Origin: an uncultured Syntrophaceae bacterium
GTDB lineage: Bacteria; Desulfobacterota; Desulfomonilia; Desulfomonilales; Desulfomonilaceae
NCBI GenBank assembly: GCA_964497585.1
Contig: CAZCDS010000010.1
Span: 1 to 55,535, forward strand
Direction: 5' to 3'
Length of the DNA stretch: 55,535 nucleotides
Shown: positions 30-23,690 of the stretch, piece after piece
Numbering within the stretch: the first letter of the stretch is position 1
Layout: the number at the start of each line of letters is the position of its first letter
Notes under the pieces: model-generated
Database searches by the model: none
What the model was told of the DNA's origin: nothing
What the model saw: the letters and a program-made list of their open reading frames with translations, nothing else
Made by a program: the position numbers and the translations under genes

Positions 30-85
30 CGCTATAAACGCGAAAGTATAGCGGGAAGGGCCTTTTTGCAAAAAGGCCCTTCCCG
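30..85. other. Two adjacent perfect hairpins at the contig edge (CGCTATA-N10-TATAGCG and GGGAAGGGCC-TTTTTGCAAAAA-GGCCCTTCCC).
   Basis: Read directly. The second has a palindromic loop and could act as a bidirectional terminator. Confidence 0.5.
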
Positions 86-117
86 GTAAACTCTTACATC
101 AAAACGACCGACCATCA

Positions 118-1520: not shown

Positions 1521-3902
1521 ATGACTGAACTCTTCGTAGGAAAGTCCTTTGCCAGAATGGACAAGGAAAAGGTAACCGGCAGGGCCGAGTTTATTAGCGA
1601 TATCAAGGTTCCCCGGATGCTTTACGGCAAGATTTTGTACAGCAGCCGTCCGCACGCCCGGATCAAGAGCATCGACACGTCACAGGCGGAGAAGCTTCCC
1701 GGCGTGAGAGCGGTCCTCACTGGCTTTAACACACCGGATGTCCGGGTCGGCTTCATCGGTGACCAGACACCCTTGAAGAAGGACAAGGTCAGACAATTCC
1801 GAGACGAGGTCGCGGCGGTGGCCGCGGTGGACGAAGATACCGCGGAAGAGGCGCTCGATCTCATCAAGGTTGAGTACGAGGACCTTCCCCCGGTTTTCGA
1901 TCCTATCGAGGCCATGAAAGAGGACGCGCCGCTCATCCACGAATTCGACGCTCGGGGCAAGCCCCGGCGAAACAATATACTCCCGTTGCCCTGGAAGCTC
2001 GTTGCCGGAGACGTGGAAAAGGCCCGCGCGGAATCAGCATACGTGGTCAAGGACAGCTTCACCACCCAGTGGGTCCACCAGACCTGCATGGGAACGAGCG
2101 GCTGCATCGCGGAATTCGACCTGAACGACAACCTCAACTTCACGAGTGTCACCAACGTACCCTTCGGCGGCAAGGACCGCCTGGACATGTTCCTCAAGAA
2201 CATCGGGGTCAAAGGCCGTACGCGGGTCTTCACTCCTTTCGTGGGCGGAAGTTTCGGCAGCAAGCTCGACACCGACATCTATGAGTTCATTGCGGTTCTG
2301 CTCGCCAGGGAGACCGGTCGCCCGGTGAAGATCCTCTTCACCCGACAGGAGGAATTCACCGCGAGCCCGCCGCGGCAGCCGACCATCGGAACCTGCGAAC
2401 AGGGATGCGACAAGGACGGCCAGCTCACCTTCCGCAAAATCGAGATGATCCTGGACAACGGCGCGTACACATCCTGGGGTGCGACAACGCCTTCGGTGAT
2501 GATGATTCCCGTCTCCTCGCTCTACCGGGTCGCCAATATCGATTATCGTGCCACCTGCGTGTACACCAACAACATCTACGCACAGGCCATGCGTGGCTAC
2601 GGCAATCCCCAGGCCACGTACATCGTTGAACAGTCCATGGATCAGTTGGCCTATGAGGCGGGGATCGACCCGCTGGAATTCCGTACGATCAACGCGAACG
2701 TCCCGGACGAAGTCACGCCCATGAGGCTCAAGATAACGACCTGCCCGCTCAAGGAGTGCCTCGACGAGGTGAAGCAGCGGCTCGACTGGGACGGCAAGAA
2801 GCGTGAAAAGAAGAAAGGCCGCGGGCTCGGGGTCGCCTCCTTCCTCCATGTGGGCGGCGGCGCTAGGGTGTACCTTTCCGACGCGCAGGGCGTCATCCTG
2901 CGAGTCGATGACGACGGCAAGCTCACCGTGATCACCGGCGGCACCGATCAGGGTCAGGGCTCCGAGACGATCATCCACCAGATGGCCGCAGACGCGACCG
3001 GGCTGCGTCCCGAGGATGTGACGATCTTCCTGGGAGACACGAATGTCTGTCCCTGGGACGTCGGCACCCACGCGAGTCGTCACGCATTCATGGTGGGACA
3101 TGCGCTGCTCACGGCAGGCACAGAAGTCAAAGCCAAGATCAAAGACCTTGCGGCCAAGTGGATGGCCGACATCATCGGGCGGAAACTCTCCCGAAAAGCC
3201 AAGCGGGACCCTGACTTCCAGATCCCCGAACTCGATCTGACCGTGCTCTCCGAACCGGACAATCTCGAAGTTCTCAACGGTCGCGTCTTCCTCAAAGACG
3301 ATCCGGACAATCCTCACACAGCCCTTTCCGTCGCGGAAGTCCTTCGCAAGGCGCACATGGTGGGCACGGGCCGCGGGGAAATGGTCACGGCTGAAGCCTT
3401 CTACGATCCCCCTAATGAGATGCTCGACCGGGAGGGCAAGGGGAACCTCTCCTGCTGCTACACCTTCGGCACCCACGGGGTCGAGGTCGAGGTGGACATG
3501 GAAACGGGCCAGGTGAATATCGTCAACTACGTCGCAGCTCATGACGTGGGCCGCGCGATCAATCCCATGCTCGTGAAAGGGCAGATATATGGCGCGGCCG
3601 TGATGGGCACGGGGTACGGGCTCAGCGAGGAGATCCAGGTCAGTGCGGGCCGCGTGATGAACGCGAATCTCCTCGATTACAAGATCCTCACCGCCAAAGA
3701 CAAGGTCCCCATCGAACCGGTCATCGTGGAGCCCATCGAGCCCTCGGGCCCATTCGGCGCGAAGGGGATCGGTGAACCCGCGTGCGTCCCCACCGCTCCG
3801 GCCATTGCCAACGCGGTCTATGACGCGATTGGCGTCCGGATCAAAGACCTGCCGCTCACACCGGAGAAGATCCTCGCCGCAATCAAGGAAAAGGAAGGGT
3901 AA
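1521..3902 (+). CDS. Molybdopterin-binding large subunit, xanthine dehydrogenase/aldehyde oxidase family.
   Basis: 793 aa. Translational coupling 4 nt after the S subunit. Typical length and glycine-rich motifs of CoxL/XdhA-family proteins. No form-I CODH AYXCSFR signature is seen, so a generic Mo-hydroxylase. Confidence 0.85.
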   Translation: MTELFVGKSFARMDKEKVTGRAEFISDIKVPRMLYGKILYSSRPHARIKSIDTSQAEKLPGVRAVLTGFNTPDVRVGFIGDQTPLKKDKVRQFRDEVAAVAAVDEDTAEEALDLIKVEYEDLPPVFDPIEAMKEDAPLIHEFDARGKPRRNNILPLPWKLVAGDVEKARAESAYVVKDSFTTQWVHQTCMGTSGCIAEFDLNDNLNFTSVTNVPFGGKDRLDMFLKNIGVKGRTRVFTPFVGGSFGSKLDTDIYEFIAVLLARETGRPVKILFTRQEEFTASPPRQPTIGTCEQGCDKDGQLTFRKIEMILDNGAYTSWGATTPSVMMIPVSSLYRVANIDYRATCVYTNNIYAQAMRGYGNPQATYIVEQSMDQLAYEAGIDPLEFRTINANVPDEVTPMRLKITTCPLKECLDEVKQRLDWDGKKREKKKGRGLGVASFLHVGGGARVYLSDAQGVILRVDDDGKLTVITGGTDQGQGSETIIHQMAADATGLRPEDVTIFLGDTNVCPWDVGTHASRHAFMVGHALLTAGTEVKAKIKDLAAKWMADIIGRKLSRKAKRDPDFQIPELDLTVLSEPDNLEVLNGRVFLKDDPDNPHTALSVAEVLRKAHMVGTGRGEMVTAEAFYDPPNEMLDREGKGNLSCCYTFGTHGVEVEVDMETGQVNIVNYVAAHDVGRAINPMLVKGQIYGAAVMGTGYGLSEEIQVSAGRVMNANLLDYKILTAKDKVPIEPVIVEPIEPSGPFGAKGIGEPACVPTAPAIANAVYDAIGVRIKDLPLTPEKILAAIKEKEG

Positions 3903-3985
3903 GCGTTTGCCGGGGAGGGCCGTGAGCAGAAGGGCCCTCCCCAGACTTCCATCCAAAGTCTCTATCGTTTCGCGCCCGTAGGCCC
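3881..3985 (+). repeat. Direct repeat copy 1: last ~7 codons of the Mo-subunit gene plus its terminator hairpin plus ~45 bp.
   Basis: ~85% identical to 15371..15483 (AATCAAGGAA.AG.AAGGGTAAG.GTTTGCCG.GGAGGGC...GCCCTCCCCAG.CTTC.ATCCAAAGTCTCTATCG.TTCGCGCC.GTAGCC). Confidence 0.8.
3912..3942 (+). terminator. GC-rich hairpin (10-bp stem GGGGAGGGCC/GGCCCTCCCC) immediately after the Mo-enzyme operon.
   Basis: Perfect inverted repeat 10 nt after the stop. No U-tract, so a transcript 3' stabiliser or Rho-independent-like terminator. Confidence 0.5.
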
Positions 3986-4370
3986 GGTGCCTTCGTCAAA
4001 ACCCTGCGGCCGCCACGTGGGTACATCATGTTTACGGTGAATGCCGCTGGAATCCGGATTCCCAAGGACATGGCGTGCCCTGCCCTCCCCTTCGCCACCC
4101 GGGACCCATCGCATGAGTCCGCAGAGCGAGAGACAACTATGGTGCGCCGCGAACTCTTCGCGAAATACGCGCCCAAACTCAAAGCCGCATGGTACTTCTG
4201 GAATAGAACCAGCAAACAGGCCGGTCACACCGTTTCTTCGAGACCATCAGCGGCCTCGAGGAGGGCCCCTTTCGAATATTCAACCACTTCCAGGGAATCA
4301 GCGGGACGCTCAAATCGGTCGTCCCGCACTTCGCTTGCGCGATGATGTCAGCACCGGTTACCATAGAAGG

Positions 4371-4405
4371 GTTGACAAAAGGACTAGCCTCGTACGATGG
4401 GTATC
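4371..4405 (+). promoter_or_regulatory. Candidate σ70-type promoter (TTGACA ... TACGAT) upstream of the NACHT gene.
   Basis: TTGACAaaaggactagcctcgTACGAT ~150 nt upstream of ATG 4555, with GGAG 10 nt before the ATG. Confidence 0.3.
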
Positions 4406-4554
4406 ACCAACCGCCGCTGCTGTAGAGGTATTGCGCTGACCGGTTGCAGCGGACTTTACCGAGCTTCTTGAATGTTGGTGATCCCAGTCGTGGCTCGGAG
4501 TCTCGGTTGGGGTAGACGGCCCCCTTTTGCTGAAATGTCTACCGGAGTTGAGCT

Positions 4555-7500
4555 ATGGCAAAGCAGATCAAGTCCCCCAAGTCTACTGGAGGAGGCGGAT
4601 ATCTTTTTGAAGACAAGGTGGTTGCTTACTTCCTCTGCTGCATGTTGACGGATTCGCCCCCCTTCGATCCCGAAGATGGGTCAATCACACGAATTGATTT
4701 CCAGTGTGGCCGGCTGGGTTGGCACCTAGACGATGTACTCCTGTTGTTGGAAACGTCGAATACGAAAAGAAGATGCGCAGTTTCCATCAAGAGCAATAGA
4801 CAGATCACTCAGAATGGTTTCCAACAAGAATTCATTTTGAGTTGCTGGGAGCAGTATCTTGGAGGAGAACCCTTTGAGATATCCAAGGACATGCTCTGTC
4901 TGGTTACAGCACCATTAGGTCTGGAAGTGAGAGATGCGGTCGACGAGTTGCTTCAGTGGTCACGGGTCCAGAAGCCTTCGGACCTGAAAAGAGGTTTGGA
5001 ACAGGCCGGTTCTGCGAACAGGTACCATCGGGCCGTGTTCGACAGCTGTTCCTGTCCCGAAGATCTCCGGGCAGCGCACGGTCTCACGGATGATGACATA
5101 GGCAAGCTGTTGAGTCACGTAAGGGTGCTGAAGTTCGATTTCCAATCAGATCCATCCGACTCTGTTCGAGAAGCCATCCGAATGTGCCGCAATATCCTGC
5201 GAAGTAACTCGGCGCGCGATGCGCAACTCCTCTGGGAGTGGTTATGCAGGATTGCTGCTGACAGCCGACCTCTTGCCGGCTCGTTGGTCCTTCCAAAGCT
5301 CATCGATCAACTGCGATTTGATTTCAAGCTACGCGACTTTCCCACCCATGAAGACGATTGGACGAAACTATGTGAACAGACTGGGACTAGTCTGCAAAGG
5401 ATTTCGGACACCATCGGTGGCGCGGTACGGGTGGATAGGCCAGAGGATCTGCAGCGAATCGGAGATTCTGTGCGCGCCAGCAGGATAACACTGATCGCCG
5501 GTCCCTCAGGCTGCGGCAAGACCGTACTGGCAAAGAAGTTTGCCGAATCAATTAGTGAACGAGCCACGGTGATTTGGTGGAATGCCGGACTCCTGGCACA
5601 CGGAGATTTGACATCGTTCGAGGGGAGCCGTCATCTCACCTATACCCTTAAGCAACTTCTTTCCTCCTTCACGGGCCAGGAAGCCTATCTGATCCTGGAT
5701 GGCCTGGACCGGCAATTTGATCGGGACACTTTCGCCAACCTCGCTGTCGTGATGACCACGCTGCGTCTGGGGGACAAATCAAGCCCCTGGCGAGTAGTCA
5801 TCTCCACCCAGGTGGAAGAAGTGCACAGGTTGCAGCGGGAACTCGCGCTAGCGGGTGTGAAGGCCGATCTCTTCCAGATCGTTCCCATTAAGGAGCCGAC
5901 ATGGCAAGAACTCCAGCCTGTATGGCGTGAATTCCCAGCTCTGGGTAGCCTTTCGCTCCGACCGGAACTCCATAGGCTGCTTTTAAAGCCTAAGATGTTG
6001 CAACTTTTCGCCACTAACATTGCAGACGCGCCGGTATCGGAAATATCAGGTTGGACTGGGGAATCGGACCTGATCGTCTGGTTCTGGGAGAATGTTGTAA
6101 GGAAAGGCCCTTCCGGTGCAACAAGGGACAGCTTTGTCAAGCGCCTTGCCCAAAGACAAGCGGACGAGTGTGCGTCCGAGCTTCCCGGAGACTCATTTGG
6201 CGTAGGCGAAACGGCGCCCTTGGGCGAGTTGATCTGCGACAGGATTTGCACATGCACGGACGAGAGATACACCTTCGAGCATGACCTCTTCGGAGACTGG
6301 GCAAGACAAAGGATTCTGGTCGGCAGGCAAAGCAATCTTGCCGATTATGTTGACGAGAAACTGGATTCTCCTGTGTGGCATCGTGCAGTACAACTGCTGG
6401 GGCTGCATCTCCTTGAACGAAGGTCCGTTGACGAGTGGGTCCAAGTCTGGACCAGCTTGCCACACGAAGGTGATCAGAGGGGACTGGCACAGGATCTCAT
6501 GTTGCAAGCAGTTATATTTGCCGCCAATCCACTTCCCCTGCTGGAGCAGATGTGGCCCGTTCTGAGTCAAGATGAAGGGAAGCTGCTCAATCGATTGCTC
6601 GCTGGATTTCTTCTGGTGGCCACATTTCCCAACAGGGCAATACAAGTCACATTGGCAAGCCTCTACCCGGAGTCTGCGACACACGCCAGAACACTGGAGC
6701 GGATACCCTTCGCGCTTTACTGGCCGCCAATAATCAGGTTCCTGCACAATCACAGCGATGACGTACTCAGACTGGCTCCTTTGAGGGCGGCCGAGGTAGC
6801 GGAGAAATGGCTCCAGTATTCTGAATCTGGTCTTCCGTGCAGGACAGAAGCGGCGGATTTAGCCTTGGAGCAGGCGGAGGACAGACTGGCTTCGAAGATG
6901 GTTTATTGGCGCGGTGTACCTAACGAGAAGTTGGATCGAGTGGTCTTCAAGGGAGCGCTAAAAGCTTATTCTGAGTATCCTGAGCGAACGGTGGCATTCG
7001 CCCTGACTGCCTGCGGAAGACGCCCGCCCTCGGATCGGATGAAGGCGAAGATTGAGTATCAGAGAAGGCTGAACCCGTTGCATGCCGACTCAGACTGCCT
7101 TCGAGAGCATACAGACGAGTGGGTTGAGGTATCATGGCGGCAGCGCTACCGCGATCCAGACGCGCAGCCACCGGATCCATGGCCTGATGGGCCCTCGCGC
7201 ATAGTCGACGAGGGTTTCGCAGAAACCTGCCTCACCACGGATGCGGTTCTCAGACTAGCCGCGACTGATCCTGCCGTGGCCAAAGAGATAGTCCTGGCCT
7301 GCTTGATCGAGACACCAAGTGACAGAATGGACGAACCAGAGATGGACAACCCACTTGCCAAGCTGGGCCTCAGCATGGTGGATCAAGAGTACTACCCTCC
7401 ATTTTGGACGAGGTCACCGTTTTGGCTTTTTCTGGGATTGGATCCGTCGGAAGCTGTTAATCTGATTATCCGGTTGGTGGATTTTGTCACTGAGAGATGG

Positions 7501-9837
7501 GCAAGCAAGAAGCGAGCACACAAACAGCAAGTATTCGAAATCGAGGTGACAATTCCCGGTGGCCAGCGCACTTTCGTCGGCGACAAGGAGGTTGCCTACT
7601 GGTTCACCGACTCGGGGACGGCTCCTCATTCGGTCGTCACTGCCCTGATGGCTCTGGAGAAGTGGCTCTACGATACTCTCGACAGGGAAGAATCCGTTTC
7701 GGAAGCCGTTGACCAAATCCTTGGTCGGGCGAAATCCACAGCGTTCCTAGGTTTGCTCTCCTGCGTGGGCAAGCGATACCCACAGCTCTTCCTGAAAGAA
7801 CTGCAGCCACTGTTGGCAATTCCAGAATTGTATCTGTGGGATGCGTGGCACCAAAGCCAAGGACAAGGACTTCAGATGCTTCCTTGGGGTGGGCTCAATC
7901 AGCCGGAGGTCCTTGTTCGGCTCGCTAAAGAATGGCACAGTATGGAACACCGCAGAGTGGACTTGCTCACCGTCGCATTCTACCTTCTCGTTGATGATAA
8001 AGGGACCCAGGACTTCTTTATCAGCGTCCGAGAGCAATGGCGAAATCTTTTGGAAGAGGGAGCTTGCGCCAGTGTTGGAGCCGGATTCCTCAGGCGCCTG
8101 ATTGACATCTTTGATCCTGCCAACCTGAGACAAGTCAGAGGTGCTGAAGGTGAAGTTATAGTGTACAGCGAGGGCATGCTCTCACAGTCTCCGGAATACG
8201 AGGCGGTGAAGCAAGACCTCGAGACCAAACAAATCCTACTGACCATGCCCTACCGTTGCAGACGATTACTATCAGGGGAGGATTCCCTCTCTGAGGAAGA
8301 ACTAGAGGGATTCTTGGCCCAAGTCCAGTCCATACCCTCCCTACAGATTCCGGATGCTTTTGATCTGGCATTCTTCGGCCCGGAAAACTGCGTAACTGGC
8401 GGAGCAGCTGTTCTCGTCAGGCATCACAGGGAATGGCTGAGAAAGCATCCTGATCGAGAACGATGGTGTGTGGAGCATCTCGTGGGAATAGTCTTGAATC
8501 CCCCCGGTCCATCCCCCGTGGAAAGCGAGTTGACCTACGTGGATTTACGATGGCAAGGGTTCTGCGCGCATGCTATCCCTATGCTCTGGGCGGAGCAGCC
8601 TGATTCTCGTGAACTCCGCCTATGTACGGCACGGCTTGGGACGGATGAGAAATACGACACAGTCAGAATACTCTTTGAATCAGCCGCGAGATTCAGACAG
8701 CAGCTAGGCTCGGACCTCAAACGCCTCCAGCACCTCGTTATGCGTTGGGCGGCTGCAAGGCCAATCAACACTCTCATTCAACGATCCGACTCGTCAGCAC
8801 CCAACGTACCGGGATGGCTCGATAACGAGATTGAGCAGTTCTGTCAGGGAAGCATGCTGCCGGAAGTACCGGAATGGAAGAGCATCTGCGATTCAGTGAA
8901 CGCAGCACTCCCCTATTCCAGTCCGTTTGATTGGACGGACGAGTCCAATAAAGCCTTGCGCATCGACCTTCTTCTTGTCATGGCCGCCAACGCTTGGATA
9001 CCTTCGCTCAACAAGGCATTGACTTCTGAAGAGAGAGCGGACTGGATTCATCTTTTCGAGGAAGCTCTGAACTACAGCATGGAGATCATAACCGAAATTC
9101 TCGAGGCCGGTGGAAAGTTAGGCTATGCCAACCACGAATGGTATGAATGGCTCTTTCGGCGACTCGTTAGAGTGATTCCCGAACTGAGCCAAAAGGAAAA
9201 GCCTGACCGATTCTGGAAACCCATCCTTGAATTGGGAGTCGACGGACATTACCGGATTGAGTCCTTCCTCAGTTGGTGGTTCATCGAAAATCTGCAATCA
9301 TCGCCTCCTCCTGGTCGTTTTCTTGAAGAATGGCAGAGAATGGTCGATTTTGCATTTCAGTCCCCACATTGGAGCTTCGAAGAGATCCAACACGGTTTCT
9401 ACGACCTCCAAAAGATGTGGTGCAACGTTATGGGCTTTGGTGCAGCCTGGGTGAAAATGTGGTCGGAGAACCACAGGTCCGTGATTGAGGCAATGCGGCC
9501 GAACTACCAGAAATGGGCCAAGGAATTCCTGGACAGACCGCAGTGCGGATCTTCCTTTGCCATCTTGCTGGAACAGGAAGGGGCACGAGGTCTCGTATTG
9601 GATGGATTGGTCTGGCTGGAGCAAGCCGTAGCAAAGAGGGGAGAAGGCTATTTCCGAGAAGAGAAGGTTCGGCGAATTGTTCTTTCTTGCCTAGACACTT
9701 GCTGGAGTACCGTAGGCCAGGAGATAAGAAGAAACGAAGCAGCCTTCAGTAGTCTGAAAAAGCTATTGCGTATACTGGCGGACAGACAAGAGCGGGTTGC
9801 AATAGAAATGCTGCGCACAATTGCAGAGACATGCTGA
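4555..9837 (+). CDS. Giant (1760 aa) NACHT/STAND-type P-loop NTPase with an uncharacterised ~300-aa N-terminal domain and a long helical-repeat C-terminal region. Candidate NLR-like/Avs-like defence protein.
   Basis: Walker A LIAGPSGCGKT (~nt 5497-5530) and NACHT-type Walker B LILDGLDRQFD ~60 aa downstream. C-terminal ~1200 aa is leucine/tryptophan-rich and helical. N-terminal GYLFEDKVVAYFL...EDGSITRIDF...LDDVLLLLE...AVSIKS is compatible with a divergent PD-(D/E)xK/Mrr-like fold. Confidence 0.65.
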   Translation: MAKQIKSPKSTGGGGYLFEDKVVAYFLCCMLTDSPPFDPEDGSITRIDFQCGRLGWHLDDVLLLLETSNTKRRCAVSIKSNRQITQNGFQQEFILSCWEQYLGGEPFEISKDMLCLVTAPLGLEVRDAVDELLQWSRVQKPSDLKRGLEQAGSANRYHRAVFDSCSCPEDLRAAHGLTDDDIGKLLSHVRVLKFDFQSDPSDSVREAIRMCRNILRSNSARDAQLLWEWLCRIAADSRPLAGSLVLPKLIDQLRFDFKLRDFPTHEDDWTKLCEQTGTSLQRISDTIGGAVRVDRPEDLQRIGDSVRASRITLIAGPSGCGKTVLAKKFAESISERATVIWWNAGLLAHGDLTSFEGSRHLTYTLKQLLSSFTGQEAYLILDGLDRQFDRDTFANLAVVMTTLRLGDKSSPWRVVISTQVEEVHRLQRELALAGVKADLFQIVPIKEPTWQELQPVWREFPALGSLSLRPELHRLLLKPKMLQLFATNIADAPVSEISGWTGESDLIVWFWENVVRKGPSGATRDSFVKRLAQRQADECASELPGDSFGVGETAPLGELICDRICTCTDERYTFEHDLFGDWARQRILVGRQSNLADYVDEKLDSPVWHRAVQLLGLHLLERRSVDEWVQVWTSLPHEGDQRGLAQDLMLQAVIFAANPLPLLEQMWPVLSQDEGKLLNRLLAGFLLVATFPNRAIQVTLASLYPESATHARTLERIPFALYWPPIIRFLHNHSDDVLRLAPLRAAEVAEKWLQYSESGLPCRTEAADLALEQAEDRLASKMVYWRGVPNEKLDRVVFKGALKAYSEYPERTVAFALTACGRRPPSDRMKAKIEYQRRLNPLHADSDCLREHTDEWVEVSWRQRYRDPDAQPPDPWPDGPSRIVDEGFAETCLTTDAVLRLAATDPAVAKEIVLACLIETPSDRMDEPEMDNPLAKLGLSMVDQEYYPPFWTRSPFWLFLGLDPSEAVNLIIRLVDFVTERWASKKRAHKQQVFEIEVTIPGGQRTFVGDKEVAYWFTDSGTAPHSVVTALMALEKWLYDTLDREESVSEAVDQILGRAKSTAFLGLLSCVGKRYPQLFLKELQPLLAIPELYLWDAWHQSQGQGLQMLPWGGLNQPEVLVRLAKEWHSMEHRRVDLLTVAFYLLVDDKGTQDFFISVREQWRNLLEEGACASVGAGFLRRLIDIFDPANLRQVRGAEGEVIVYSEGMLSQSPEYEAVKQDLETKQILLTMPYRCRRLLSGEDSLSEEELEGFLAQVQSIPSLQIPDAFDLAFFGPENCVTGGAAVLVRHHREWLRKHPDRERWCVEHLVGIVLNPPGPSPVESELTYVDLRWQGFCAHAIPMLWAEQPDSRELRLCTARLGTDEKYDTVRILFESAARFRQQLGSDLKRLQHLVMRWAAARPINTLIQRSDSSAPNVPGWLDNEIEQFCQGSMLPEVPEWKSICDSVNAALPYSSPFDWTDESNKALRIDLLLVMAANAWIPSLNKALTSEERADWIHLFEEALNYSMEIITEILEAGGKLGYANHEWYEWLFRRLVRVIPELSQKEKPDRFWKPILELGVDGHYRIESFLSWWFIENLQSSPPPGRFLEEWQRMVDFAFQSPHWSFEEIQHGFYDLQKMWCNVMGFGAAWVKMWSENHRSVIEAMRPNYQKWAKEFLDRPQCGSSFAILLEQEGARGLVLDGLVWLEQAVAKRGEGYFREEKVRRIVLSCLDTCWSTVGQEIRRNEAAFSSLKKLLRILADRQERVAIEMLRTIAETC

Positions 9838-9914
9838 CCATCGAGATGGAGAGCCGCTTGACAGCCGCACCGGCTTGCCTCGCCGAAACGGATGATAAGC
9901 GGTTTGACCAATTT

Positions 9915-10175
9915 GGGCTAATCCGGGATTTGCGTGAGCCCGTGAATCCGGGTAGACCATTCCTAATTCCATGTCCATATTTGCGGTCGACAATCATCAG
10001 GTCCGAACGTTCCCCAATGATTGCCGCTGTTGCACAAGTCGGTCCCCTGCCGCCGATTGACGGCGGACCGACCGAAGGCCAGCCCGTCTTGCTGCCGGCA
10101 CTCATCGCACGAGACGTCAACGGCAAAGATAGGCATGATGCACCCAACACTCCTACGCACTCCTGTCTTTTCGGA
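9915..10175 (+). repeat. Interspersed structured repeat, copy A (full length).
   Basis: Contains a 23-nt 5' unit GTGAATCCGGGTAGACCATTCCT, the core TGTCCATATTTGCGGTCGACAATCA...GGTCCGAACGTTCCCCAATGATTGCC, a conserved hairpin GTCGGTCC-CCTG-CCGCC-GATTGAC-GGCGG-A-GGACCGAC, and the tail AAGGGCGGCCCGTCTTGC.... Confidence 0.85.
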
Positions 10176-10318
10176 TCCACAGGAGCCTCCTGAAGTCGTC
10201 ATCAGAGCCAGGGTGGAAGAGGTGACGCCTCAAAAACCTGGGGCCGGATGAATTCCGGGCGCTAGTCCTCTCGTTGCCCGCCCCTAACCTTCCCATCCAT
10301 GAGCGGGATTCTCTTTCG

Positions 10319-10759
10319 CTACAGGGATAGTTCTTCCACGAGGACGACTTTCACGTCGGTTATCGTGGAGAGATTCTTGTCGTTAGTGAGCAACGCATCG
10401 CAATTACCTTGGAGCGCTGAAGCGACTTGAAAGGCGTCGGTGAGAGTCAGATTGTGGCTGGATCGAATGTCCGCAGCTATGCGCGCGGTGTCCCTTTGTA
10501 TGGGGACGAAAACGGAAGAAGGGTCGCCCCCCATAAGCTCAAGAAATGCCTCGATTACGTCAGCCCTTCCCTGTTTCATCGGCAACACGAGGCACTCAGC
10601 CAGCGTGATGGGAGATGTTACCGGTACGAGGTCGCCGGCCTCGAATCGACGGAAGACCGGTTCAAGAATCGAGCAATAGACAGGATGTCGCTCGACGAAA
10701 TAAATGACCGGCGCAGAATCCAGGAAGACGCGATGCATTCCGTTCAGAACTCCGCTCAT
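10319..10759 (-). CDS. PIN-domain toxin (VapC-like).
   Basis: 146 aa, with an N-terminal FLDSAPVIYF motif and C-terminal acidic residues typical of the VapC PIN fold. Immediately downstream of a small antitoxin-like gene. Confidence 0.7.
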   Translation of the reverse strand: MSGVLNGMHRVFLDSAPVIYFVERHPVYCSILEPVFRRFEAGDLVPVTSPITLAECLVLPMKQGRADVIEAFLELMGGDPSSVFVPIQRDTARIAADIRSSHNLTLTDAFQVASALQGNCDALLTNDKNLSTITDVKVVLVEELSL

Positions 10760-10765
10760 TACACA

Positions 10766-11017
10766 TCACCGATTGGTATCCGCAAGGCGCTTTTCATCCG
10801 ATTCTCGACGGGAGTGGGAGATGTAACCCTGAGCGTCTTCTCCGCAGGCAGGATATGACAACATGCCCATCACGTCCGACCACCTACGTGGCGGCTCAGA
10901 CCGGACAACGGTAGAAGCGCGAGCCTTTTCCGCCAGCGCGGCAATCAGGCCTAGCTGCTCTTCGGTAGTCAGCAAGTCAAGCTTTTCGATGATCTCTTCC
11001 AATATCTCGTTTTTCAT
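10766..11017 (-). CDS. Small antitoxin-like protein (addiction-module component family).
   Basis: 83 aa, MKNEILEEIIEKLDLLTTEEQLGLIAALAEKA, resembling DUF2281/TIGR02574-type antitoxins. 6-bp spacing to the vapC-like gene. Confidence 0.55.
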   Translation of the reverse strand: MKNEILEEIIEKLDLLTTEEQLGLIAALAEKARASTVVRSEPPRRWSDVMGMLSYPACGEDAQGYISHSRRESDEKRLADTNR

Positions 11018-11216
11018 GGTCAGGTCTCCTCAGTCGTGCAGTGAATGCCCGCGCACAGCCACACTCCGAGTTCTCTCTCTTCAGGGTATCGGTATCCAAC
11101 AGGAAGTCAAGCATTCGTTCTCAAAGTCGGACCGGCTTCGATCCTGTGTACTCACGGATTCCGCCAAAAGACTTCATCCTCCGCGGTTTCCAGCTTGATG
11201 GCGGAAGGATTGGACA

Positions 11217-11395
11217 TGTGAATCCGGGTATGAATCCGGGTACACTATACCTCATTCTGTGTCCATATTTGGGCCGACAATCGCGCGGTCCGAACGTTCC
11301 CCAATGATTGGCTCTCTTGGACAAGGCAGTCCCTTGACGCCGATTGACGGCGGACCGACCCACAAGGGCGGCCCGTCTTGCCTCCGGCGGTCTAG
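11217..11395 (+). repeat. Interspersed structured repeat, copy B (tandem 5' units, 3'-truncated).
   Basis: GTGAATCCGGGTA-TGAATCCGGGTACACTATACCT, then core TGTCCATATTTGGGCCGACAATCGCGCGGTCCGAACGTTCCCCAATGATTGG... and the GATTGACGGCGGACCGAC hairpin half. Ends after AAGGGCGGCCCGTCTTGCC. Confidence 0.85.
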
Positions 11396-11499
11396 CCTGT
11401 GACGGAAATCGCTCTTGGAGTCATCTCACCGGTACTCGACGCAATCGCGTTGCCCCCCAAAAGGATCTATGGTACGCTTCACAATATTGGTAAACGTGA

Positions 11500-11725
11500 G
11501 CGCGAAATAGCAGTTGCCAAAAGAAGTGGCAGATTTCTTGTGGAAAGATTGCGGAGGGCTCTTTTTTCGGCAAAAAACCACCCTCCGCACCTCCCACAAA
11601 AAACTCCATATTTTCGGCAAACTGCTCCGCTTTGCTTCGCGAGTTTGCAGGATGACGTAGGCGGTTTCTTGAAACATACGCCACCGGCAATAAGACAGAA
11701 TTTTTGACAATCAGTATAATTGCTC
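11500..11725 (+). promoter_or_regulatory. Duplicated ~230-bp leader/regulatory element, copy 1 (upstream of the lactonase-like gene).
   Basis: ~90% identical to 12781..13010. Contains a GCGGAGGGC...GCCCTCCGC hairpin and a TTGACA...TATAAT-like segment. Ends ~70 nt before ATG 11793. Confidence 0.6.
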
Positions 11726-11792
11726 GTTGTTCGCGCACGCTTCTGATTCCGCCGAGCCAGGTTCCGAATGCTCAGGTCGACGGAGACGCATC

Positions 11793-12746
11793 ATGAAAGC
11801 TGTCACTCCTGTTAGCTCACCGAGCGCCAAGGTGCGGGTCGTAGCGAGCGGTCTGGAGTTCCCCGAGGGCCCGATCGCGATGACTGACGGTTCCGTGCTC
11901 GTGACCGAGATTGCCGCTGGCAGACTCACCAGGGTCCTGCAGGACGGTAGGATCGAACACGTCGCCGAGATCGGCGGCGGCCCCAACGGTGCGGCAATCG
12001 GGCCCGATGGAACCGTCTATGTCTGCAACAATGGCGGCAGCTTCTCGTTCCAACGCAAGGACGATCTGCTCGTCTTCGGACTTGTGGCGCCACCCACCTA
12101 CACACAGGGAAGCATTGACCGGGTCGACCTCTCTACAGGCGAGGTTACCACCCTTTACAGCGCCTGTGGCAATCGTCCGCTGCGTGCCCCTAACGATATT
12201 GTCTTCGACAGCACGGGCGGTTTCTGGTTTACCGATCACGGAATACGCACCGAACGGTCGAGCGACTTCACCGGGGTTTTCTATGCCCAGCCCGACGGTT
12301 CAAGTATCACCGAGAAGATCTTTCCTCTGGCCAGCCCGAACGGCATCGCCCTGTCGCCTGACGGAAGTCGTCTCTATGTCGCTGAGACCCAGGTCGGGCG
12401 CATTTGGTATTGGGACCTTGATGGTCCCGGCGAGATTGCGAAGAACTCGGACAGTGAATTCCATGCGGGCAGGCTCCTCTACGGGGCACCGGGCTACGCG
12501 CTGTTCGATTCGATGGCGGTCGACGGCGAGGGCTGGGTATGTCAGGGGACATTGATGGAGGGTGCCATCACCCAGATCGCTCCGGACGGTCGGACGGTCG
12601 AGATCCTGACTCTGAGTGACCCCATGATCACCAATATCTGCTTCGGTGGTCCCGACTACCGCACGGCATTCATAACGTGTTCCGGCACCGGGCAATTGAT
12701 TGCGGTGGACTGGCCGCGACCTGGTTTGCGATTGGCCTTTCCTTGA
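11793..12746 (+). CDS. SMP-30/gluconolactonase/LRE-like beta-propeller hydrolase.
   Basis: ORF 11727..12746. Start placed at MKAVTPV (ATG 11793 after GGAG). Repeated GG..G..DG..Y...N beta-propeller motifs typical of the lactonase/SMP-30 family. Confidence 0.65.
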   Translation: MKAVTPVSSPSAKVRVVASGLEFPEGPIAMTDGSVLVTEIAAGRLTRVLQDGRIEHVAEIGGGPNGAAIGPDGTVYVCNNGGSFSFQRKDDLLVFGLVAPPTYTQGSIDRVDLSTGEVTTLYSACGNRPLRAPNDIVFDSTGGFWFTDHGIRTERSSDFTGVFYAQPDGSSITEKIFPLASPNGIALSPDGSRLYVAETQVGRIWYWDLDGPGEIAKNSDSEFHAGRLLYGAPGYALFDSMAVDGEGWVCQGTLMEGAITQIAPDGRTVEILTLSDPMITNICFGGPDYRTAFITCSGTGQLIAVDWPRPGLRLAFP

Positions 12747-12780
12747 TCGTCTTGATCGAGGGATCGCGTTCCGCTCAGGT

Positions 12781-13010
12781 AGAGCCTGCGCTTATAGCAG
12801 GTGCCAAAAGAAATGGCAGATTTCTTGTGGAAAGATTGCGGAGGGCTCTTTTTTCGGCAGAAAGACCGCCCTCCGCACCTCCCGCAAAAAACTCCATATT
12901 TTCGGCAAACTGCTCCGCTTTGCTTTGCCAGTTTGCAGGATGATGTGGGGCGATTCTTGAAACACACGCCACCACCAATAAGACAGAATTTTTGACAATC
13001 GGTATATGAA
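12781..13010 (+). promoter_or_regulatory. Duplicated ~230-bp leader/regulatory element, copy 2 (upstream of the ThDP enzyme gene).
   Basis: Same ordered motifs as copy 1 (GCCAAAAGAA.TGGCAGATTTCTTGTGGAAAGATTGCGGAGGGCTCTTTTTTCGGCA.AAA.ACC.CCCTCCGCACCTCCC.CAAAAAACTCCATATTTTCGGCAAACTGCTCCGCTTTGCTT...AATAAGACAGAATTTTTGACAATC). Confidence 0.6.
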
Positions 13011-13040
13011 GATGAGCTTGACGTTTTCCGAGGAGACAGC

Positions 13041-14750
13041 ATGGTGAAAACAACCGAGTACATGATCAAAGCGCTTCGGGATCAGGGCATCAGCCACGTT
13101 TTTATCGGTCTTGGCGGCCTGAATGATAACTTCATGCCGCCTTTGACCGAAACCGAGGGTCTGAGGACAGTCGTCACCGCGTTCGAGGGTGGCGCGGCCT
13201 ATATGGCGGACGGCTATTCACGAGCTTCAGGCGGTCTCGGCGTGTGTTTCGGAATCGGTGGCCCAGGCGTTCTCAACATGACTACCGCGCTCGCCGCCGC
13301 AAGCACCGACCGCAGTTCGGTCCTCGCCGTCAGCGGTGAAGTCGCGCGGAGCTGGGAAGGAATGGGCGGCTTTCAGGACGCTTCCCAGGCCGCGATCGAC
13401 GATATCGACATTCTCCGGCGCATAGCGGGATTGTCGCTGTCGATGTCGTCAGCCGCGGTTGTTCCACGTCATCTCAGGCACGCCATAACGTACGCGTTCA
13501 CAAGGCGGTCACCAGTTCACTTGTCAGTGCCTGTCGATGTGCAGAAGGCGGAGATCCACGAAGAATGGCAGCCGATCCCGACATCGCTGTTGTCCGCGAA
13601 ATTCATCGACGAAGAAGCGTTCGCCACTGCGGTCGGCCTGCTCAATAACTCGGAGACCAGAAACATTATCGTACTCGCTGGTCCCGGCGTAAAGGGATAC
13701 GGCGCGGACATGCTGCTCCAGTTCGCGGAGCGGTTTGATGTCCCGGTGGCGACCACACTTTCGGGCAAAGGGGTGATGCCCGAAGATCATCCATTGGCGC
13801 TCGGCGTGTTCGGTTACGGGGGATCGCGTCCGGCGATCGATGCAATCTGCTCCGATGAGGTGGAGGTTCTGCTCGTCATCGGCTCCGGTTTGTCACAACG
13901 CGACACGATGCAATGGGACCCGAGAATGCTTCCCTCCAAGGCGCTGATTCAGGTGGACGCCGACCCGCTGCTGATCGGCCGGACCTGGACCGCCGATGCA
14001 CCGATTGTCGCCGATCCGGCCGCGCTGCTCAAAGAATTGGCGGATCTCCAGGACGCCGCGGAACTCGAGGCCGGTCGCAACTATCGTCTGGACTTTCTGC
14101 GCAAAATCAACGCGCTCGGTCCTCGCTGTTACAGCAGCGAAGACACGGAGAGCAACGCCATACCCATGCATCCGGCGCGGGTCGTGACAGAGCTTCGCGC
14201 GGCTTTCCCTGATAAAGGTGTGCTCTGCGTCGATTCCGGTGCGCACCGAGCCTGGTTCGCCGAGTATTGGGAAGCGCGCCATCCGGGGACCCACTTCTCT
14301 CTGACGAACCTCGGCCCGATGGGCGGAGCAATTCCACTCGGCATCGGCGCAAAGATGGCCCGGCCCGAGCGCCCGCTCATGGTCGCGACGGGAGATGGAT
14401 GTATGCTGATGCACGGCATGGAACTGCACACCGCTGCGCGCGAGGAGGTTCCGCTCGTCATCGCGCTGATGAACAACCAGGCGTACGGCAACATTTACTT
14501 TCGCGCCGCACAGATGGGACCCGGCCCAGAGCATCTCACCGATATTCCCGGCATCGACTGGGTCGCTTTTGCCAAATCGATGGGGGGTGATGGAGAGCGG
14601 GTGGAACGTCCCGAAGGCATCGCGGCGGCCGTCAGCCGTGGGCTCGACGCCTCGGGCCCGTATCTCCTGGATCTTCAAATTGACAAGACCTATCCAACGC
14701 CTGTCGGTGTCTGGCGGGCACGTCAGAAGGAATGGGAGGATAATGACTAA
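13041..14750 (+). CDS. Thiamine-diphosphate-dependent enzyme (acetolactate synthase / benzoylformate decarboxylase superfamily).
   Basis: 569 aa. N-terminal Pyr domain (GISHVFIGLGGLNDNFMPP...GIGGPGVLN), central domain, and C-terminal PP domain with a GDG...N ThDP motif (ATGDGCMLMHGMELHTA...NNQAYGN). Confidence 0.8.
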   Translation: MVKTTEYMIKALRDQGISHVFIGLGGLNDNFMPPLTETEGLRTVVTAFEGGAAYMADGYSRASGGLGVCFGIGGPGVLNMTTALAAASTDRSSVLAVSGEVARSWEGMGGFQDASQAAIDDIDILRRIAGLSLSMSSAAVVPRHLRHAITYAFTRRSPVHLSVPVDVQKAEIHEEWQPIPTSLLSAKFIDEEAFATAVGLLNNSETRNIIVLAGPGVKGYGADMLLQFAERFDVPVATTLSGKGVMPEDHPLALGVFGYGGSRPAIDAICSDEVEVLLVIGSGLSQRDTMQWDPRMLPSKALIQVDADPLLIGRTWTADAPIVADPAALLKELADLQDAAELEAGRNYRLDFLRKINALGPRCYSSEDTESNAIPMHPARVVTELRAAFPDKGVLCVDSGAHRAWFAEYWEARHPGTHFSLTNLGPMGGAIPLGIGAKMARPERPLMVATGDGCMLMHGMELHTAAREEVPLVIALMNNQAYGNIYFRAAQMGPGPEHLTDIPGIDWVAFAKSMGGDGERVERPEGIAAAVSRGLDASGPYLLDLQIDKTYPTPVGVWRARQKEWEDND

Positions 14751-15310
14751 TGGCCGAAATACCCGATCCCACCAATACGCTCGCTGGCAAGGACCGCGAA
14801 TTGTTCGAGCACATGGCGTCCGCGCGCGCATACGCCGAGGGCCGCTCCCATCTGGGCGATGTCTATGTGCGCATGTTCAACAACCCGGGCGTGACCGCGA
14901 AAGTCGGCGCCCTGGGCGAGCATCTGAGATTCCATGGCTTGCTGCCCGATGACGTACGTGAACTGGTGATCCTGCGTTTCTCCGCCCGGCAGGGGTTTCC
15001 CTACGAGTGGTCCCACCATCAGCGTCCGGCAAAGTTGGCCGGAATCAGCCAAGAGGTGATTGACGCCCTGACCGCGGGGGAGGTGCCCAACACGCTGCCT
15101 GATGCCTCACAGGCGACCCTTGAGGCCGTCGACGCGATCGTCGCGAAGAAATCCATCCCGGCAGATGTACAGCGACGATTCGTGGACGTCCATGGCGTGT
15201 CCGGCCTCGTCGAGGTCGTGGCCATCTGCGGCCTGTACTCGATCATGGGATACATGACCACCGCGTTCGACATCCAGATCGAGGAAGGGCTGCCAAAGCC
15301 ACCGTTTTAG
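14750..15310 (+). CDS. Carboxymuconolactone decarboxylase (AhpD-like) family protein.
   Basis: 186 aa. Overlapping TAATG coupling with the ThDP enzyme gene. Helical AhpD-like core. Confidence 0.55.
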   Translation: MAEIPDPTNTLAGKDRELFEHMASARAYAEGRSHLGDVYVRMFNNPGVTAKVGALGEHLRFHGLLPDDVRELVILRFSARQGFPYEWSHHQRPAKLAGISQEVIDALTAGEVPNTLPDASQATLEAVDAIVAKKSIPADVQRRFVDVHGVSGLVEVVAICGLYSIMGYMTTAFDIQIEEGLPKPPF

Positions 15311-15370
15311 GTACGCATCGGTTGTTCCGTGCGAAATCCAAACGCATCAAGCACTTTGATGAACGGACAC

Positions 15371-15483
15371 AATCAAGGAAGAGAAGGGTAAGAGTTTGCC
15401 GTGGAGGGCTTTCAGCAAAAGTGCCCTCCCCAGCCTTCTATCCAAAGTCTCTATCGCTTCGCGCCGGTAGCCCCCCGCCTGCG
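15371..15483 (+). repeat. Direct repeat copy 2 (orphan 3' end of the Mo-subunit gene plus terminator hairpin).
   Basis: Matches 3881..3985, including the codons encoding ...IKE.KG* and the GGAGGGC/GCCCTCC hairpin. No gene body upstream. Confidence 0.8.
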
Positions 15484-15630
15484 GCGAAGGCTTGCGTCCG
15501 CGACGTCGGGGACAACATACGTACCGTGAATGCTGCTGTAATCCGCCTTCGCTAGGGCACCGCGTGCCGTCTTCTCCCTTAGCGACCTTCAACCCATCGT
15601 AAGGGCTGTCAAGGCCGAGAGATAGGTATA

Positions 15631-16241
15631 GTGAACCCCGAACTACTTGAATCCGTTTTCTGCGGCCTGTATCCTGGACCGAGAAGGTGCAGTCTCGGAC
15701 AGGAGAGGAGTGCAGTATTCGTGAGAAGAATCTGCGCATGGTGCGGAAAGGACATGGGCTCGGTGGGGCCTGAAGGCGACGATCCAAAGCCGATTACCCA
15801 CACAGTATATGCGACGACTGTGCACATCACCAGCTTGCCCAGATAGGCATGAACGTGCCGGCCCTCCTTGAGGGCCTTCATTGTCCGGTGATTGTAGTAG
15901 ACTCCACTGGAATAATCGTGACCGGGAACACGAAGGCACTTGAGATGGTTAAGAAGGAGCTGTCGCAGGTTGAGGGCTACCCGGGAGGAGAGGTGTTTGA
16001 ATGCGAGCACGCAAGGCTTCCCGGTGGATGCGGTAATACGGTGCACTGCTCCGGATGCACCATAAGAAAAGCAGTGATGGAAACGCACTCAACAGGAAAG
16101 AGCCTTTTGAGAACTCCGGCCACCTTGCTCCAACACTCATCCGGAGATGCCAAGGAAATACGGCTGCTGATCTCCACGGAGAAGGTCGAGGATGTTGTGC
16201 TGCTGAGGATTGATGAGGTCAATCCGTCCGGTTCAATCTGA
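15631..16241 (+). pseudogene. Zinc-ribbon (CxWCGK...THxxCDDC) + Cys-rich PAS-like sensor protein. Probably one gene split by a frameshift near nt 15802.
   Basis: ORF 15631..15846 (frame 1) encodes ...ICAWCGKDMG...PITH. Frame 0 from 15774 continues ...SICDDCAHHQLAQIG-MNVPALLEGLHCPVIVVDSTGIIVTGNTKALEMV... to 16241. The joined product has a CxxC...CxxC ribbon followed by a PAS-like fold with CEHARLPGGCGNTVHCSGC. Confidence 0.45.
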
Positions 16242-19672: not shown

Positions 19673-19741
19673 TCTTGACTCCTCTGGCGAGGCGAGTTGT
19701 CTCAAGCATTTGTCACCCTTGGGGACATCACCTCCGGCGAA

Positions 19742-23655: not shown

Positions 23656-23690
23656 ACTCTCATCTTCTCTGCGTGCAACCAGTGCAAAGG

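What the first reader, a model, noticed from the sequence alone, without database searches (positions are those of the whole stretch)
3881..15483. ~100-bp direct repeats containing the 3' end and terminator of the Mo-enzyme gene bracket an 11.4-kb accessory block
The last codons of the Mo large-subunit gene (...AIKEKEG*), its terminator hairpin and ~45 bp downstream (3881-3985) recur at 15371-15483 without any gene body, at ~85% identity. The DNA between carries the NACHT giant, VapBC, two repeat-family copies, and a lactonase/ThDP-enzyme/CMD trio with duplicated leaders. Duplication of a gene's 3' end at the far boundary of an insert is the classic footprint of site-specific integration into the 3' end of a gene (att-like). 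No integrase is present, so this may be a decayed or satellite island, or a product of recombination between repeats.
Basis: seen in the sequence. Interest (0 to 1): 0.6.

Follow-up and report, generated by a model that had tools for sequence, protein, structure and literature searches.

The report
Composite dispersed repeat, not proven att site
The two repeats are real and do carry the last codons of the molybdenum-enzyme gene. They are assembled from short repeat elements scattered through this genome, and they bracket a patchwork of unrelated gene cassettes, so they look like ordinary repeat-driven rearrangement rather than the footprint of an integrated island.

Summary
Window 3881-4160 and 15371-15650 are collinear direct repeats of about 280 bp: 75% identical overall (E 1e-51), 87% in the first 100 bp, with sharp edges.

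Each copy is a composite of four parts:
- the last 19-22 nt plus stop codon of the Mo-subunit gene, a tail that is native in homologues;
- a roughly 110-nt hairpin element (M1) with four further copies and one hairpin-only copy in the window;
- about 90 nt of unclassified sequence;
- the roughly 60-nt right terminus of a 215-nt MITE-like family, which has six further copies, all on the + strand between 4 and 24 kb.

The right edge of the A/B homology coincides with that terminus.

The 11.4 kb between the copies is not one island. It holds an Avs4-like STAND gene (low GC), a VapBC-like pair, and a lactonase-ThDP-CMD operon that is 88-94% nt-identical to other metagenome contigs with different neighbours. 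Two 212-nt elements inserted in that cassette (upstream of the lactonase gene and between it and the ThDP gene) have visible empty sites in relatives.

The 55-kb window contains no integrase, transposase or tRNA.

The best reading is homology-driven copying within a repeat-rich mosaic. An e14/icd-like att origin is unsupported but not excluded. The decisive empty-site contigs (P0336, P0337) exist but could not be fetched. Interest is low.

The parts
1521..3902 (+). Mo-cofactor-binding large subunit gene (xanthine dehydrogenase / CO dehydrogenase family). Its last 22 nt form the left end of repeat copy A.
   Evidence: Pfam Ald_Xan_dh_C, MoCoBD_1 and MoCoBD_2. The C-terminus ...AIKEKEG* is native in homologues.
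3881..4160 (+). Repeat copy A (R_A): gene tail plus stop (3881-3902), hairpin element M1 (3900-4012), unclassified stretch (4013-4099), right terminus of the MITE-like family (4100-4158).
15371..15650 (+). Repeat copy B (R_B): frameshifted gene-tail relic (15371-15391), M1 (15389-15500), unclassified stretch, MITE-like right terminus (15592-15646). No gene body lies upstream.
55396..55509 (-). M1 copy D, a full-length hairpin element without gene tail or MITE end, lying between convergent genes.
   Evidence: nhmmer with the A/B profile, E 7e-8. 59-63% identical to A and B. CM R1 65.8 bits.
52..97 (-). Hairpin-only copy C of M1, inverted, just upstream of the Mo operon.
   Evidence: nhmmer E 1.3e-6 to 2.6e-5. 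CM 68.6 bits. Perfect 15-bp stem, z = -5.8.
11508..11718 (+). It carries an M1-like core (11551-11617) and is inserted upstream of the lactonase gene.
   Evidence: Absent from the orthologous site in L013, i.e. an empty site. The M1 profile built without it hits at E 7e-5.
12793..13006 (+). Element L2, 214 nt, 88-96% identical to L1, inserted between the lactonase and ThDP genes.
   Evidence: Absent from L011, L013 and L014, where the two genes are 46-82 nt apart. The repeat finder D7 and D9.
9942..10154 (+). Long MITE-like repeat, about 215 nt, between the giant gene and the VapBC-like pair.
   Evidence: nhmmer E 9e-67. Families D2, D3 and D6.
11231..11383 (+). Long MITE-like repeat with its right end truncated. 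It lies about 50 nt left of the start of homology with the foreign trio cassette.
   Evidence: nhmmer E 1e-40, model positions 4-155. Homology to L013 starts at 11436.
17337..17535 (+). Long MITE-like repeat outside the A-B interval.
   Evidence: nhmmer E 4e-64.
19729..19946 (+). Long MITE-like repeat outside the interval, between ankyrin genes.
   Evidence: nhmmer E 6e-67.
23323..23656 (+). Partial copy (23323-23414) plus full copy (23438-23656) of the long MITE-like repeat, in tandem.
   Evidence: nhmmer E 1e-22 and 3e-70. 19-nt inverted termini, 74% complementary.
4555..9837 (+). 1760-aa P-loop STAND protein, Avs4-like; a candidate defence gene. GC 0.51-0.555.
   Evidence: PADLOC Avs4 E 5e-18; only sub-threshold Pfam P-loop hits. 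Homologues are 26-47% identical and come from scattered phyla. GC profile.
10319..11017 (-). VapBC-like pair: PIN toxin (10319-10759) and an 83-aa upstream partner (10766-11017).
   Evidence: Pfam PIN E 8.5e-12; the partner has no hit.
11436..15353 (+). Lactonase (11793-12746), ThDP enzyme (13041-14750) and CMD (14750-15310) operon cassette, interrupted by L1 and L2.
   Evidence: 88-94% nt identity to L011, L013 and L014 and 83% to L012, all with different neighbours. Pfam SGL, TPP_enzyme and CMD.

Best explanation
R_A and R_B are the two closest copies of a roughly 280-bp composite non-coding unit. The unit consists of the Mo-gene tail, the hairpin element M1, about 90 nt of unclassified sequence, and the right terminus of a MITE-like repeat.

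They sit in a 20-kb stretch (4-24 kb) where heterogeneous cassettes are separated by same-strand copies of lineage-specific dispersed repeats. The cassettes are an Avs4-like gene, a VapBC-like pair, a horizontally shared lactonase-ThDP-CMD operon, orphan ORFs and ankyrin genes.

Copy B most likely arose by homology-driven copying, not by an integrase. The proposed route is ectopic recombination, gene conversion or templated break repair (or unequal crossing-over) that was primed in the MITE-like part. Synthesis then ran leftwards through M1 into the last codons of the Mo gene and ended at an arbitrary point. On this reading the intervening 11.4 kb need not have arrived as one piece.

Shown: the repeat and its sharp edges; its modular make-up; the dispersal of the modules; the mosaic origin of the block; mobility of the related L elements through empty sites; absence of recombinase genes in the window.

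Inferred: the copying mechanism and its direction, A to B. The direction rests on the tail being native coding sequence at A.
For: - Modular make-up and dispersal.
- The A/B homology ends at 4155-4165 / 15644-15655. The MITE-like family model ends at 4158 / 15646. The right edge is therefore the repeat terminus, as expected if that homology primed the event.
- The left edge is arbitrary, 19-22 nt inside the coding sequence, and the upstream flanks are unrelated.
- Across repeat families the nearest copies are often the most similar: L1-L2 at 88-96%, 1.29 kb apart, and A-B at 81% in M1 against 48-63% to other copies. This points to local copying or conversion.
- The block is a mosaic: GC 0.51-0.56 for the Avs4-like and VapBC-like genes against 0.57-0.62 for the trio.
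- The trio is 88-94% nt-identical to contigs with other neighbours, one of them next to a DDE_3 transposase.
- L1 and L2 are clean insertions.
- All eight hits to the MITE-like model (six further copies plus the two termini in A and B) are on the + strand within 4-24 kb.
- No integrase, transposase or tRNA in the window.
Against: - There is no direct evidence for the copying mechanism.
- A templated-repair event over 11.5 kb is inferred only from the positions of the edges.
- The terminal inverted repeats of the MITE-like family are weak: 15/19 at consensus level, shuffle p about 0.013, and detected by the tool in only one copy. 'MITE' is therefore a label of resemblance.
- The left part of the 'short MITE' in A and B was matched only by eye and by MAFFT.
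- The whole genome could not be searched, so further tail-bearing copies or a paralogous Mo gene cannot be ruled out.
- The direct-repeat-around-accessory-genes geometry is also what integration predicts.
Confidence: 0.45

Rival explanations
1. The repeats are attL/attR of an old genomic island. It would have integrated by site-specific (e14/icd-like) or Campbell-type recombination into the 3' end of the Mo gene. The island carried its own substitute gene end, and the integrase has since been lost or acts in trans (a satellite).
For: - Direct repeats that start inside the 3' end of a gene and bracket defence and toxin-antitoxin genes.
- A native tail at A and a frameshifted relic at B.
- Lower GC in 4-11.4 kb.
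- The precedent of e14 in icd, where a 163-bp pseudo-icd' is displaced to the far end (PMC6379469).
Against: - No integrase or pseudogene in the block or in the 55-kb window.
- The repeat is built from elements dispersed at other loci.
- Its right edge equals a repeat-family terminus, which att models do not predict.
- The block is a mosaic, with a trio operon shared at 88-94% nt with other contexts.
- DNA to the right of B is equally accessory and repeat-rich.
- 25% divergence between the copies.
- No match to phages or plasmids.
Confidence: 0.2
2. Copy B is the last relic of a second, tandemly duplicated or paralogous Mo-enzyme operon. The duplication would have arisen by unequal crossing-over between same-strand MITE-like copies, and the gene bodies were later deleted up to 19-22 nt before the stop codon.
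For: - B retains only the extreme gene tail plus everything downstream up to the repeat terminus.
- Directly oriented repeats that could mediate unequal crossing-over are abundant here.
- This enzyme family is highly paralogous in related genomes; 7850 hits at E <= 1e-50.
Against: - No residual similarity to the Mo gene upstream of 15371.
- The 60 nt between the CMD stop codon and B are continuous with the foreign trio cassette up to 15353-15357. The deletion would therefore have to end exactly at a cassette joint.
- The window contains no second Mo operon.
Confidence: 0.15
3. The whole roughly 280-bp unit, gene tail included, is itself a mobile non-autonomous element. It would be a pack-MITE-like element or a case of flank transduction that picked up 19 nt of the Mo gene, and it exists in further copies elsewhere in the genome. 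A and B would then be just two insertions.
For: - Related 212-nt L elements with an M1-like core are demonstrably mobile, with empty sites in relatives.
- M1 and the MITE-like end are dispersed.
- Sharp edges on both sides.
Against: - Only two copies are seen in 55 kb.
- Logan contigs run through A and B without breaking, whereas they break inside the long MITE-like repeat, L2 and hairpins C and D. There are therefore no near-identical extra copies in that sample.
- No target-site duplication is evident.
- Neither the source genome nor other copies were found in the public collections.
Confidence: 0.15

Closest known systems
e14 / phage 21 integration into the 3' end of icd in E. coli (attL/attR with a displaced pseudo-icd')
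   Same: A direct repeat begins inside the 3' end of a protein-coding gene. The functional gene end is at the left junction and a non-functional relic is at the far junction. The two copies are diverged and more than 100 bp long (PMC6379469).
   Different: There is no integrase or phage gene. The repeat extends about 260 bp beyond the stop codon into DNA made of dispersed elements. The interior is a mosaic of cassettes. No excision or empty-site evidence exists.
MITEs (miniature inverted-repeat transposable elements)
   Same: Short (about 150-215 nt), non-coding, multi-copy and intergenic. Inverted termini are weak. The related L elements show clean insertion and empty-site polymorphism.
   Different: The inverted termini are poor and no target-site duplication could be defined. 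No parent transposase is in view. All copies lie on one strand and are clustered, which is unusual for TIR elements.
REP / BIME extragenic palindromes
   Same: M1 carries a GC-rich imperfect palindrome placed just after stop codons or between convergent genes. It occurs in both orientations, and the stem is maintained despite sequence change.
   Different: M1 is about 110 nt, not 20-40 nt. Genome-wide copy number and any RAYT transposase are unknown. The covariation signal is modest.
IS26 translocatable units and pseudo-compound arrays
   Same: Cassettes of unrelated origin are separated by directly oriented copies of one repeat (PMC4196232).
   Different: The repeats here encode no transposase. 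The cassette edges do not all abut the repeats. No mechanism has been shown.

Membership tests
Integrase-mediated island / prophage att pair (e14-icd type) | Direct repeats at both ends that contain the 3' end of the target gene | tested here: met
   3881-4160 vs 15371-15650. The tail AIKEKEG* is native at copy A and a relic at copy B.
Integrase-mediated island / prophage att pair (e14-icd type) | Tyrosine or serine recombinase gene (or its remnant) next to one att site | tested here: not met
   Pfam scans of all large ORFs in the window and of small ORFs in the block's intergenic DNA found none. There is no tRNA or tmRNA.
Integrase-mediated island / prophage att pair (e14-icd type) | Repeat sequence specific to the two junctions, not a dispersed element | tested here: not met
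   M1 copies at 55396-55509(-), 11543-11654, 12830-12942 and 52-95(-). The MITE-like right end occurs at six other loci. Only the 19-22-nt tail is specific to the pair.
Integrase-mediated island / prophage att pair (e14-icd type) | Empty site in related genomes (gene followed directly by the right flank) | tested here: inconclusive
   Relatives at 80-82% aa identity have no conserved downstream synteny.
Integrase-mediated island / prophage att pair (e14-icd type) | Interior of a single foreign origin | tested here: not met
   GC is heterogeneous. The trio cassette is shared at 88-94% nt with contigs that have other neighbours, whereas the giant gene has no relative above 47% aa.
MITE | Short, non-coding, multiple copies | tested here: met
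   Six long copies plus two right-end fragments. No Pfam hits for overlapping ORFs.
MITE | Terminal inverted repeats | tested here: inconclusive
   19-nt arms, 74% complementary, in one copy only. At consensus level 15/19, shuffle p about 0.013.
MITE | Target-site duplication and insertion / empty-site polymorphism | tested here: inconclusive
   Empty sites were shown for the related L1 and L2 elements only. No target-site duplication could be defined, and no empty site is available for the long family or for R.
REP / BIME | Extragenic imperfect palindrome, conserved as a hairpin, in many copies | tested here: met
   The hairpin is present in all six copies, and 5 of 10 pairs show a compensated change in at least one copy. 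The count covers this window only.
REP / BIME | Associated RAYT (TnpA-REP) transposase and genome-wide high copy number | not testable with these tools
   The source genome is not in the searchable collections.
Intrinsic (Rho-independent) terminator | GC-rich stem-loop followed by a U-tract | tested here: not met
   The stem is present, but there is no T-run, and the scan does not report the A or B hairpins.
IS26-like translocatable-unit array | Cassettes separated by directly oriented copies of a transposase-encoding IS | tested here: not met
   Directly oriented repeats are present, but no transposase is encoded in them or anywhere in the window.

The most novel reading that the evidence does not exclude
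The 4-24 kb stretch is a cassette-capture platform. Unrelated genes (a defence STAND gene, a toxin-antitoxin pair, a horizontally shared metabolic operon, ankyrin genes) would be recruited and shuffled by recombination at same-strand copies of non-autonomous repeats. This would be a transposase-less analogue of IS26 translocatable-unit arrays or of integron cassette arrays, with R_A and R_B as two of its joints.
Probability: 0.12. Interest if true: 0.55.

Novelty: new member of a known kind. Interest (0 to 1): 0.25.

Why it matters
If the att reading were right, this would be a new integration target, the 3' end of a xanthine-dehydrogenase-family gene, for an integrase-less island that carries an Avs-like defence gene.

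The evidence points to something more ordinary: lineage-specific dispersed repeats that mark the joints of a mosaic variable region in an uncultivated Thermodesulfobacteriota-like bacterium.

The practical lesson is for island callers. A direct repeat that contains a gene end and flanks accessory genes can arise from repeat-driven copying. It should not be scored as an att site without an integrase or an empty site.

Tried and rejected
- Rfam found nothing, either at gathering thresholds over the window or at E <= 5 on 3800-4600. There are no tRNA or tmRNA genes.
- Empty-site test via Mo-subunit homologues at 80-82% aa identity (L002-L005): downstream genes are not conserved and no A/B-like DNA is present.
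- Hairpin pattern scan of genome contigs: one chance hit inside coding DNA of an unrelated MAG. The source genome is not in that collection.
- Scans of JGI metagenome contigs for the MITE-like core and for the A/B core: 0 hits each.
- Megablast of the block against plasmids and phages: no match.
- Extending the window with Logan contigs failed. The contigs are short and end inside repeats or hairpins.
- Residual Mo-gene similarity upstream of B, or similarity downstream of the repeat: none.
- Similarity between B and the DNA downstream of CMD in the trio's relatives: none. An eye-catching CAATCAAG...CGTGGAGG match in L013 is not above shuffles.
- The 128-aa and 185-aa ORFs to the right of B have no counterpart next to the Mo operons of relatives.
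- An integron attC reading of the same-strand repeats was rejected by inspection. There are no R''/R' (RYYYAAC / GTTRRRY) ends, and the cassettes are large and lie on both strands.
- A 1288-bp tandem-array idea for the equal spacing of two repeat pairs is not supported by the intervening DNA.


Full report
**1. The observation**

The two sequences were read directly. The repeat finder reports 3894-3985 vs 15383-15474 at 87% (family D8). MAFFT and a sensitive blastn show that the homology is longer. It runs from 3881 to about 4155-4165 and from 15371 to about 15644-15655: 275-285 bp, 75% identity, E 1e-51. Identity is 87% in the first 100 nt and 68% in the remaining 175 nt.

The edges are sharp. 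Neither the 120-180 nt upstream nor the 400 nt downstream of the two copies align better than shuffled sequence.

The first 22 nt of copy A are the last codons (AIKEKEG*) of the Mo large-subunit gene at 1521-3902, which carries Pfam MoCoBD_1/2 and Ald_Xan_dh_C. Homologues end in LAA[LI]KEKE.., so this tail is native coding sequence and was not brought in by an element. Copy B keeps the tail with one substitution and a 1-nt deletion and has no gene body in front of it.

Independent Logan contigs from SRR14802572 span both junctions: L001 covers window 1314-10067 and L009 covers 12977-17474. The arrangement is therefore not an assembly artefact.

**2. What the repeat is made of**

The unit is modular.

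(a) Hairpin element M1. After the stop codon comes a roughly 110-nt element that starts with a GC-rich hairpin. A profile made from A and B alone finds a full-length third copy at 55399-55505 on the minus strand (E 7e-8) and a hairpin-only copy at 53-97 on the minus strand, just upstream of the Mo operon (E 2.6e-5). A profile from A, B and D finds the two 'leaders' at 11551-11617 and 12838-12905 (E 7e-5 and 1.4e-4). A covariance model gives the same set. The stem is kept in all six copies despite sequence change. It is not followed by a U-tract and is not reported by the terminator scan.

(b) MITE-like right terminus. The last roughly 60 nt of the unit (4100-4158 and 15592-15646) are the right terminus of a 215-nt dispersed family. 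A profile built only from four long copies hits A at E 2.7e-5 and B at E 3.2e-6. The long family has copies at 9942-10154, 11231-11383 (truncated), 17337-17535, 19729-19946 and 23323-23414 plus 23438-23656. All are on the + strand and all lie within 4-24 kb. Its inverted termini are weak: 19 nt at 74% in one copy, and 15/19 at consensus level with p about 0.013. I therefore call it MITE-like only.

(c) About 90 nt between M1 and the terminus (4013-4099) are unclassified.

The right edge of the A/B homology coincides, within about 5-10 nt, with the terminus of the long family. Copy D has M1 but neither the tail nor the MITE-like end. A and B share the same three-part junctions, so they derive from one duplication of the composite and not from independent insertions.

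**3. What lies between and around the copies**

- The giant ORF (4555-9837, 1760 aa) has only sub-threshold P-loop hits in Pfam and a partial PADLOC Avs4 match (E 5e-18). Its relatives are 26-47% identical and scattered over several phyla.
- 10319-10759 on the minus strand is a PIN protein, with an 83-aa partner upstream.
- The lactonase-ThDP-CMD trio is a conserved operon. Window 11436-15353 is 88-94% identical at the nucleotide level to JGI and Logan contigs L011, L013 and L014, and 83% to L012. Those contigs have different neighbours: TrkA, DUF3303, and a DDE_3 transposase.
- Against those contigs, the two 'duplicated leaders' are clean insertions of a roughly 212-nt element, L1 at 11508-11718 and L2 at 12793-13006. 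The orthologous sites in L013 and L011 are empty and the flanks align straight across.
- Homology with L013 ends at 15353-15357, 14-17 nt before copy B. It begins at 11436, about 50 nt after the truncated long repeat.
- GC is 0.59-0.61 in the Mo operon, 0.51-0.56 across the Avs4-like and VapBC-like genes, 0.57-0.62 in the trio, and 0.51-0.55 again to the right of B.
- To the right of B the same style continues to about 24 kb, with orphan ORFs, more long repeats and three ankyrin-repeat genes.
- The 55-kb window encodes no integrase, transposase, tRNA or tmRNA. The block has no near match in plasmid or phage collections.

**4. Interpretation**

The att reading predicts four things: a recombinase, a junction-specific repeat, an interior of one origin, and a boundary between foreign and native DNA at B. 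None of these is seen. The coincidence of the right edge with a repeat-family terminus is also unexplained by that reading.

A homology-driven event explains both edges. Pairing would occur in the MITE-like part and copying would run leftwards through M1 until it stopped at an arbitrary point 19-22 nt inside the gene. Such an event could be gene conversion, templated repair or unequal crossing-over.

This also fits the local pattern in which the nearest copies are often the most similar: L1-L2 at 88-96%, and A-B at 81% in M1 against 48-63% to other copies. The mechanism is inferred and has not been shown. I give this reading 0.45.

The rivals are:
- an old e14/icd-like or Campbell-type integration whose integrase is gone (0.2; precedent in PMC6379469);
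- a relic of a second Mo operon (0.15);
- a mobile composite with more copies elsewhere in the genome (0.15).

**5. What could not be done**

Relatives of the Mo operon at 80-82% aa identity have no conserved downstream synteny. The source genome is not in the genome or JGI contig collections.

**6. Comparison with known systems, and verdict**

The geometry resembles e14/icd att sites. The building blocks resemble MITEs and REP-like palindromes. The array of cassettes separated by directly oriented repeats resembles IS26 arrays (PMC4196232), but without a transposase. Membership in the att class fails on three tested features: recombinase, junction specificity and single origin.

The elements themselves are new, lineage-specific members of known kinds. 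The finding is real but most likely ordinary repeat-driven genome plasticity, and interest is 0.25. The most novel reading not excluded is a transposase-less cassette-capture array, at about 0.12.

Noticed in passing
window 11508-11718 and 12793-13006: The 'duplicated leaders' are two copies of a roughly 212-nt insertion element that is absent from the orthologous sites of L011, L013 and L014. Each carries an M1-like hairpin and a sigma54-like motif, TGGCAG-N5-TTGT (AAGTGGCAGATTTCTTGTGG). A PAS/sigma54 activator is encoded at 27801-29177(-). The elements may bring promoters to the lactonase and ThDP genes.
   Followed up: partly
window 9920-10094 -> 11208-11382 and 11492-11740 -> 12780-13028: Two different, non-overlapping repeat pairs have the same displacement of 1287-1288 bp, although the DNA between them is unrelated. 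This is either coincidence or a trace of an old periodic array.
   Followed up: partly
window 4011-23656: All eight hits to the MITE-like repeat model (six further copies plus the two right-end fragments in A and B) are on the + strand and confined to 4-24 kb. None lies in the remaining 31 kb. Strand bias and clustering of this kind are unusual for TIR elements.
   Followed up: partly
window 11436-15353; loci L011, L012, L013, L014: The lactonase-ThDP-CMD operon is 83-94% nt-identical to contigs from other metagenomes with entirely different neighbours. In L012 it lies directly next to a DDE_3 (IS630-type) transposase. The ThDP enzyme is 72-78% identical to most other listed homologues, including one annotated as alphaproteobacterial. 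This looks like a horizontally mobile metabolic cassette of unknown substrate.
   Followed up: partly
window 4555-9837: A 1760-aa P-loop STAND protein with a partial Avs4 match. Full-length relatives, only 26-47% identical, are scattered over Nitrospirota, Acidobacteriota, Actinomycetota and Bacteroidota. It is a candidate anti-phage sensor with an uncharacterised N-terminal effector region.
   Followed up: partly
window 17687-18346(-), 18437-19783(-), 20019-23474(-), 38334-39689(-): Four ankyrin-repeat proteins, one of them 1151 aa with at least 16 ANK repeats. This is an unusual density for a bacterium. Their internal repeats produce repeat finder families D1, D4 and D5.
   Followed up: no
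window 40-100(-) and 3897-3962(+): The Mo operon is bracketed by inverted copies of the M1 hairpin: copy C upstream on the minus strand and copy A downstream on the plus strand. C is a perfect 15-bp-stem palindrome, z = -5.8.
   Followed up: no
window 46738-50106 and 50496-51587: A second STAND-like protein (double zinc ribbon, adenylate/guanylate cyclase, AAA_16 and TPR domains) lies next to an ORF with a putative AbiC domain. This may be another defence locus.
   Followed up: no
loci L001, L007, L009, L010: Short-read (Logan) contigs of the same sample end inside the long MITE-like repeat (window 10067 and 17474), inside L2 (12977), and inside hairpins D (55472) and C (57). They run through R_A and R_B without breaking. 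The long repeats, L elements and hairpins therefore have near-identical copies or are perfect palindromes, while R_A and R_B do not.
   Followed up: partly
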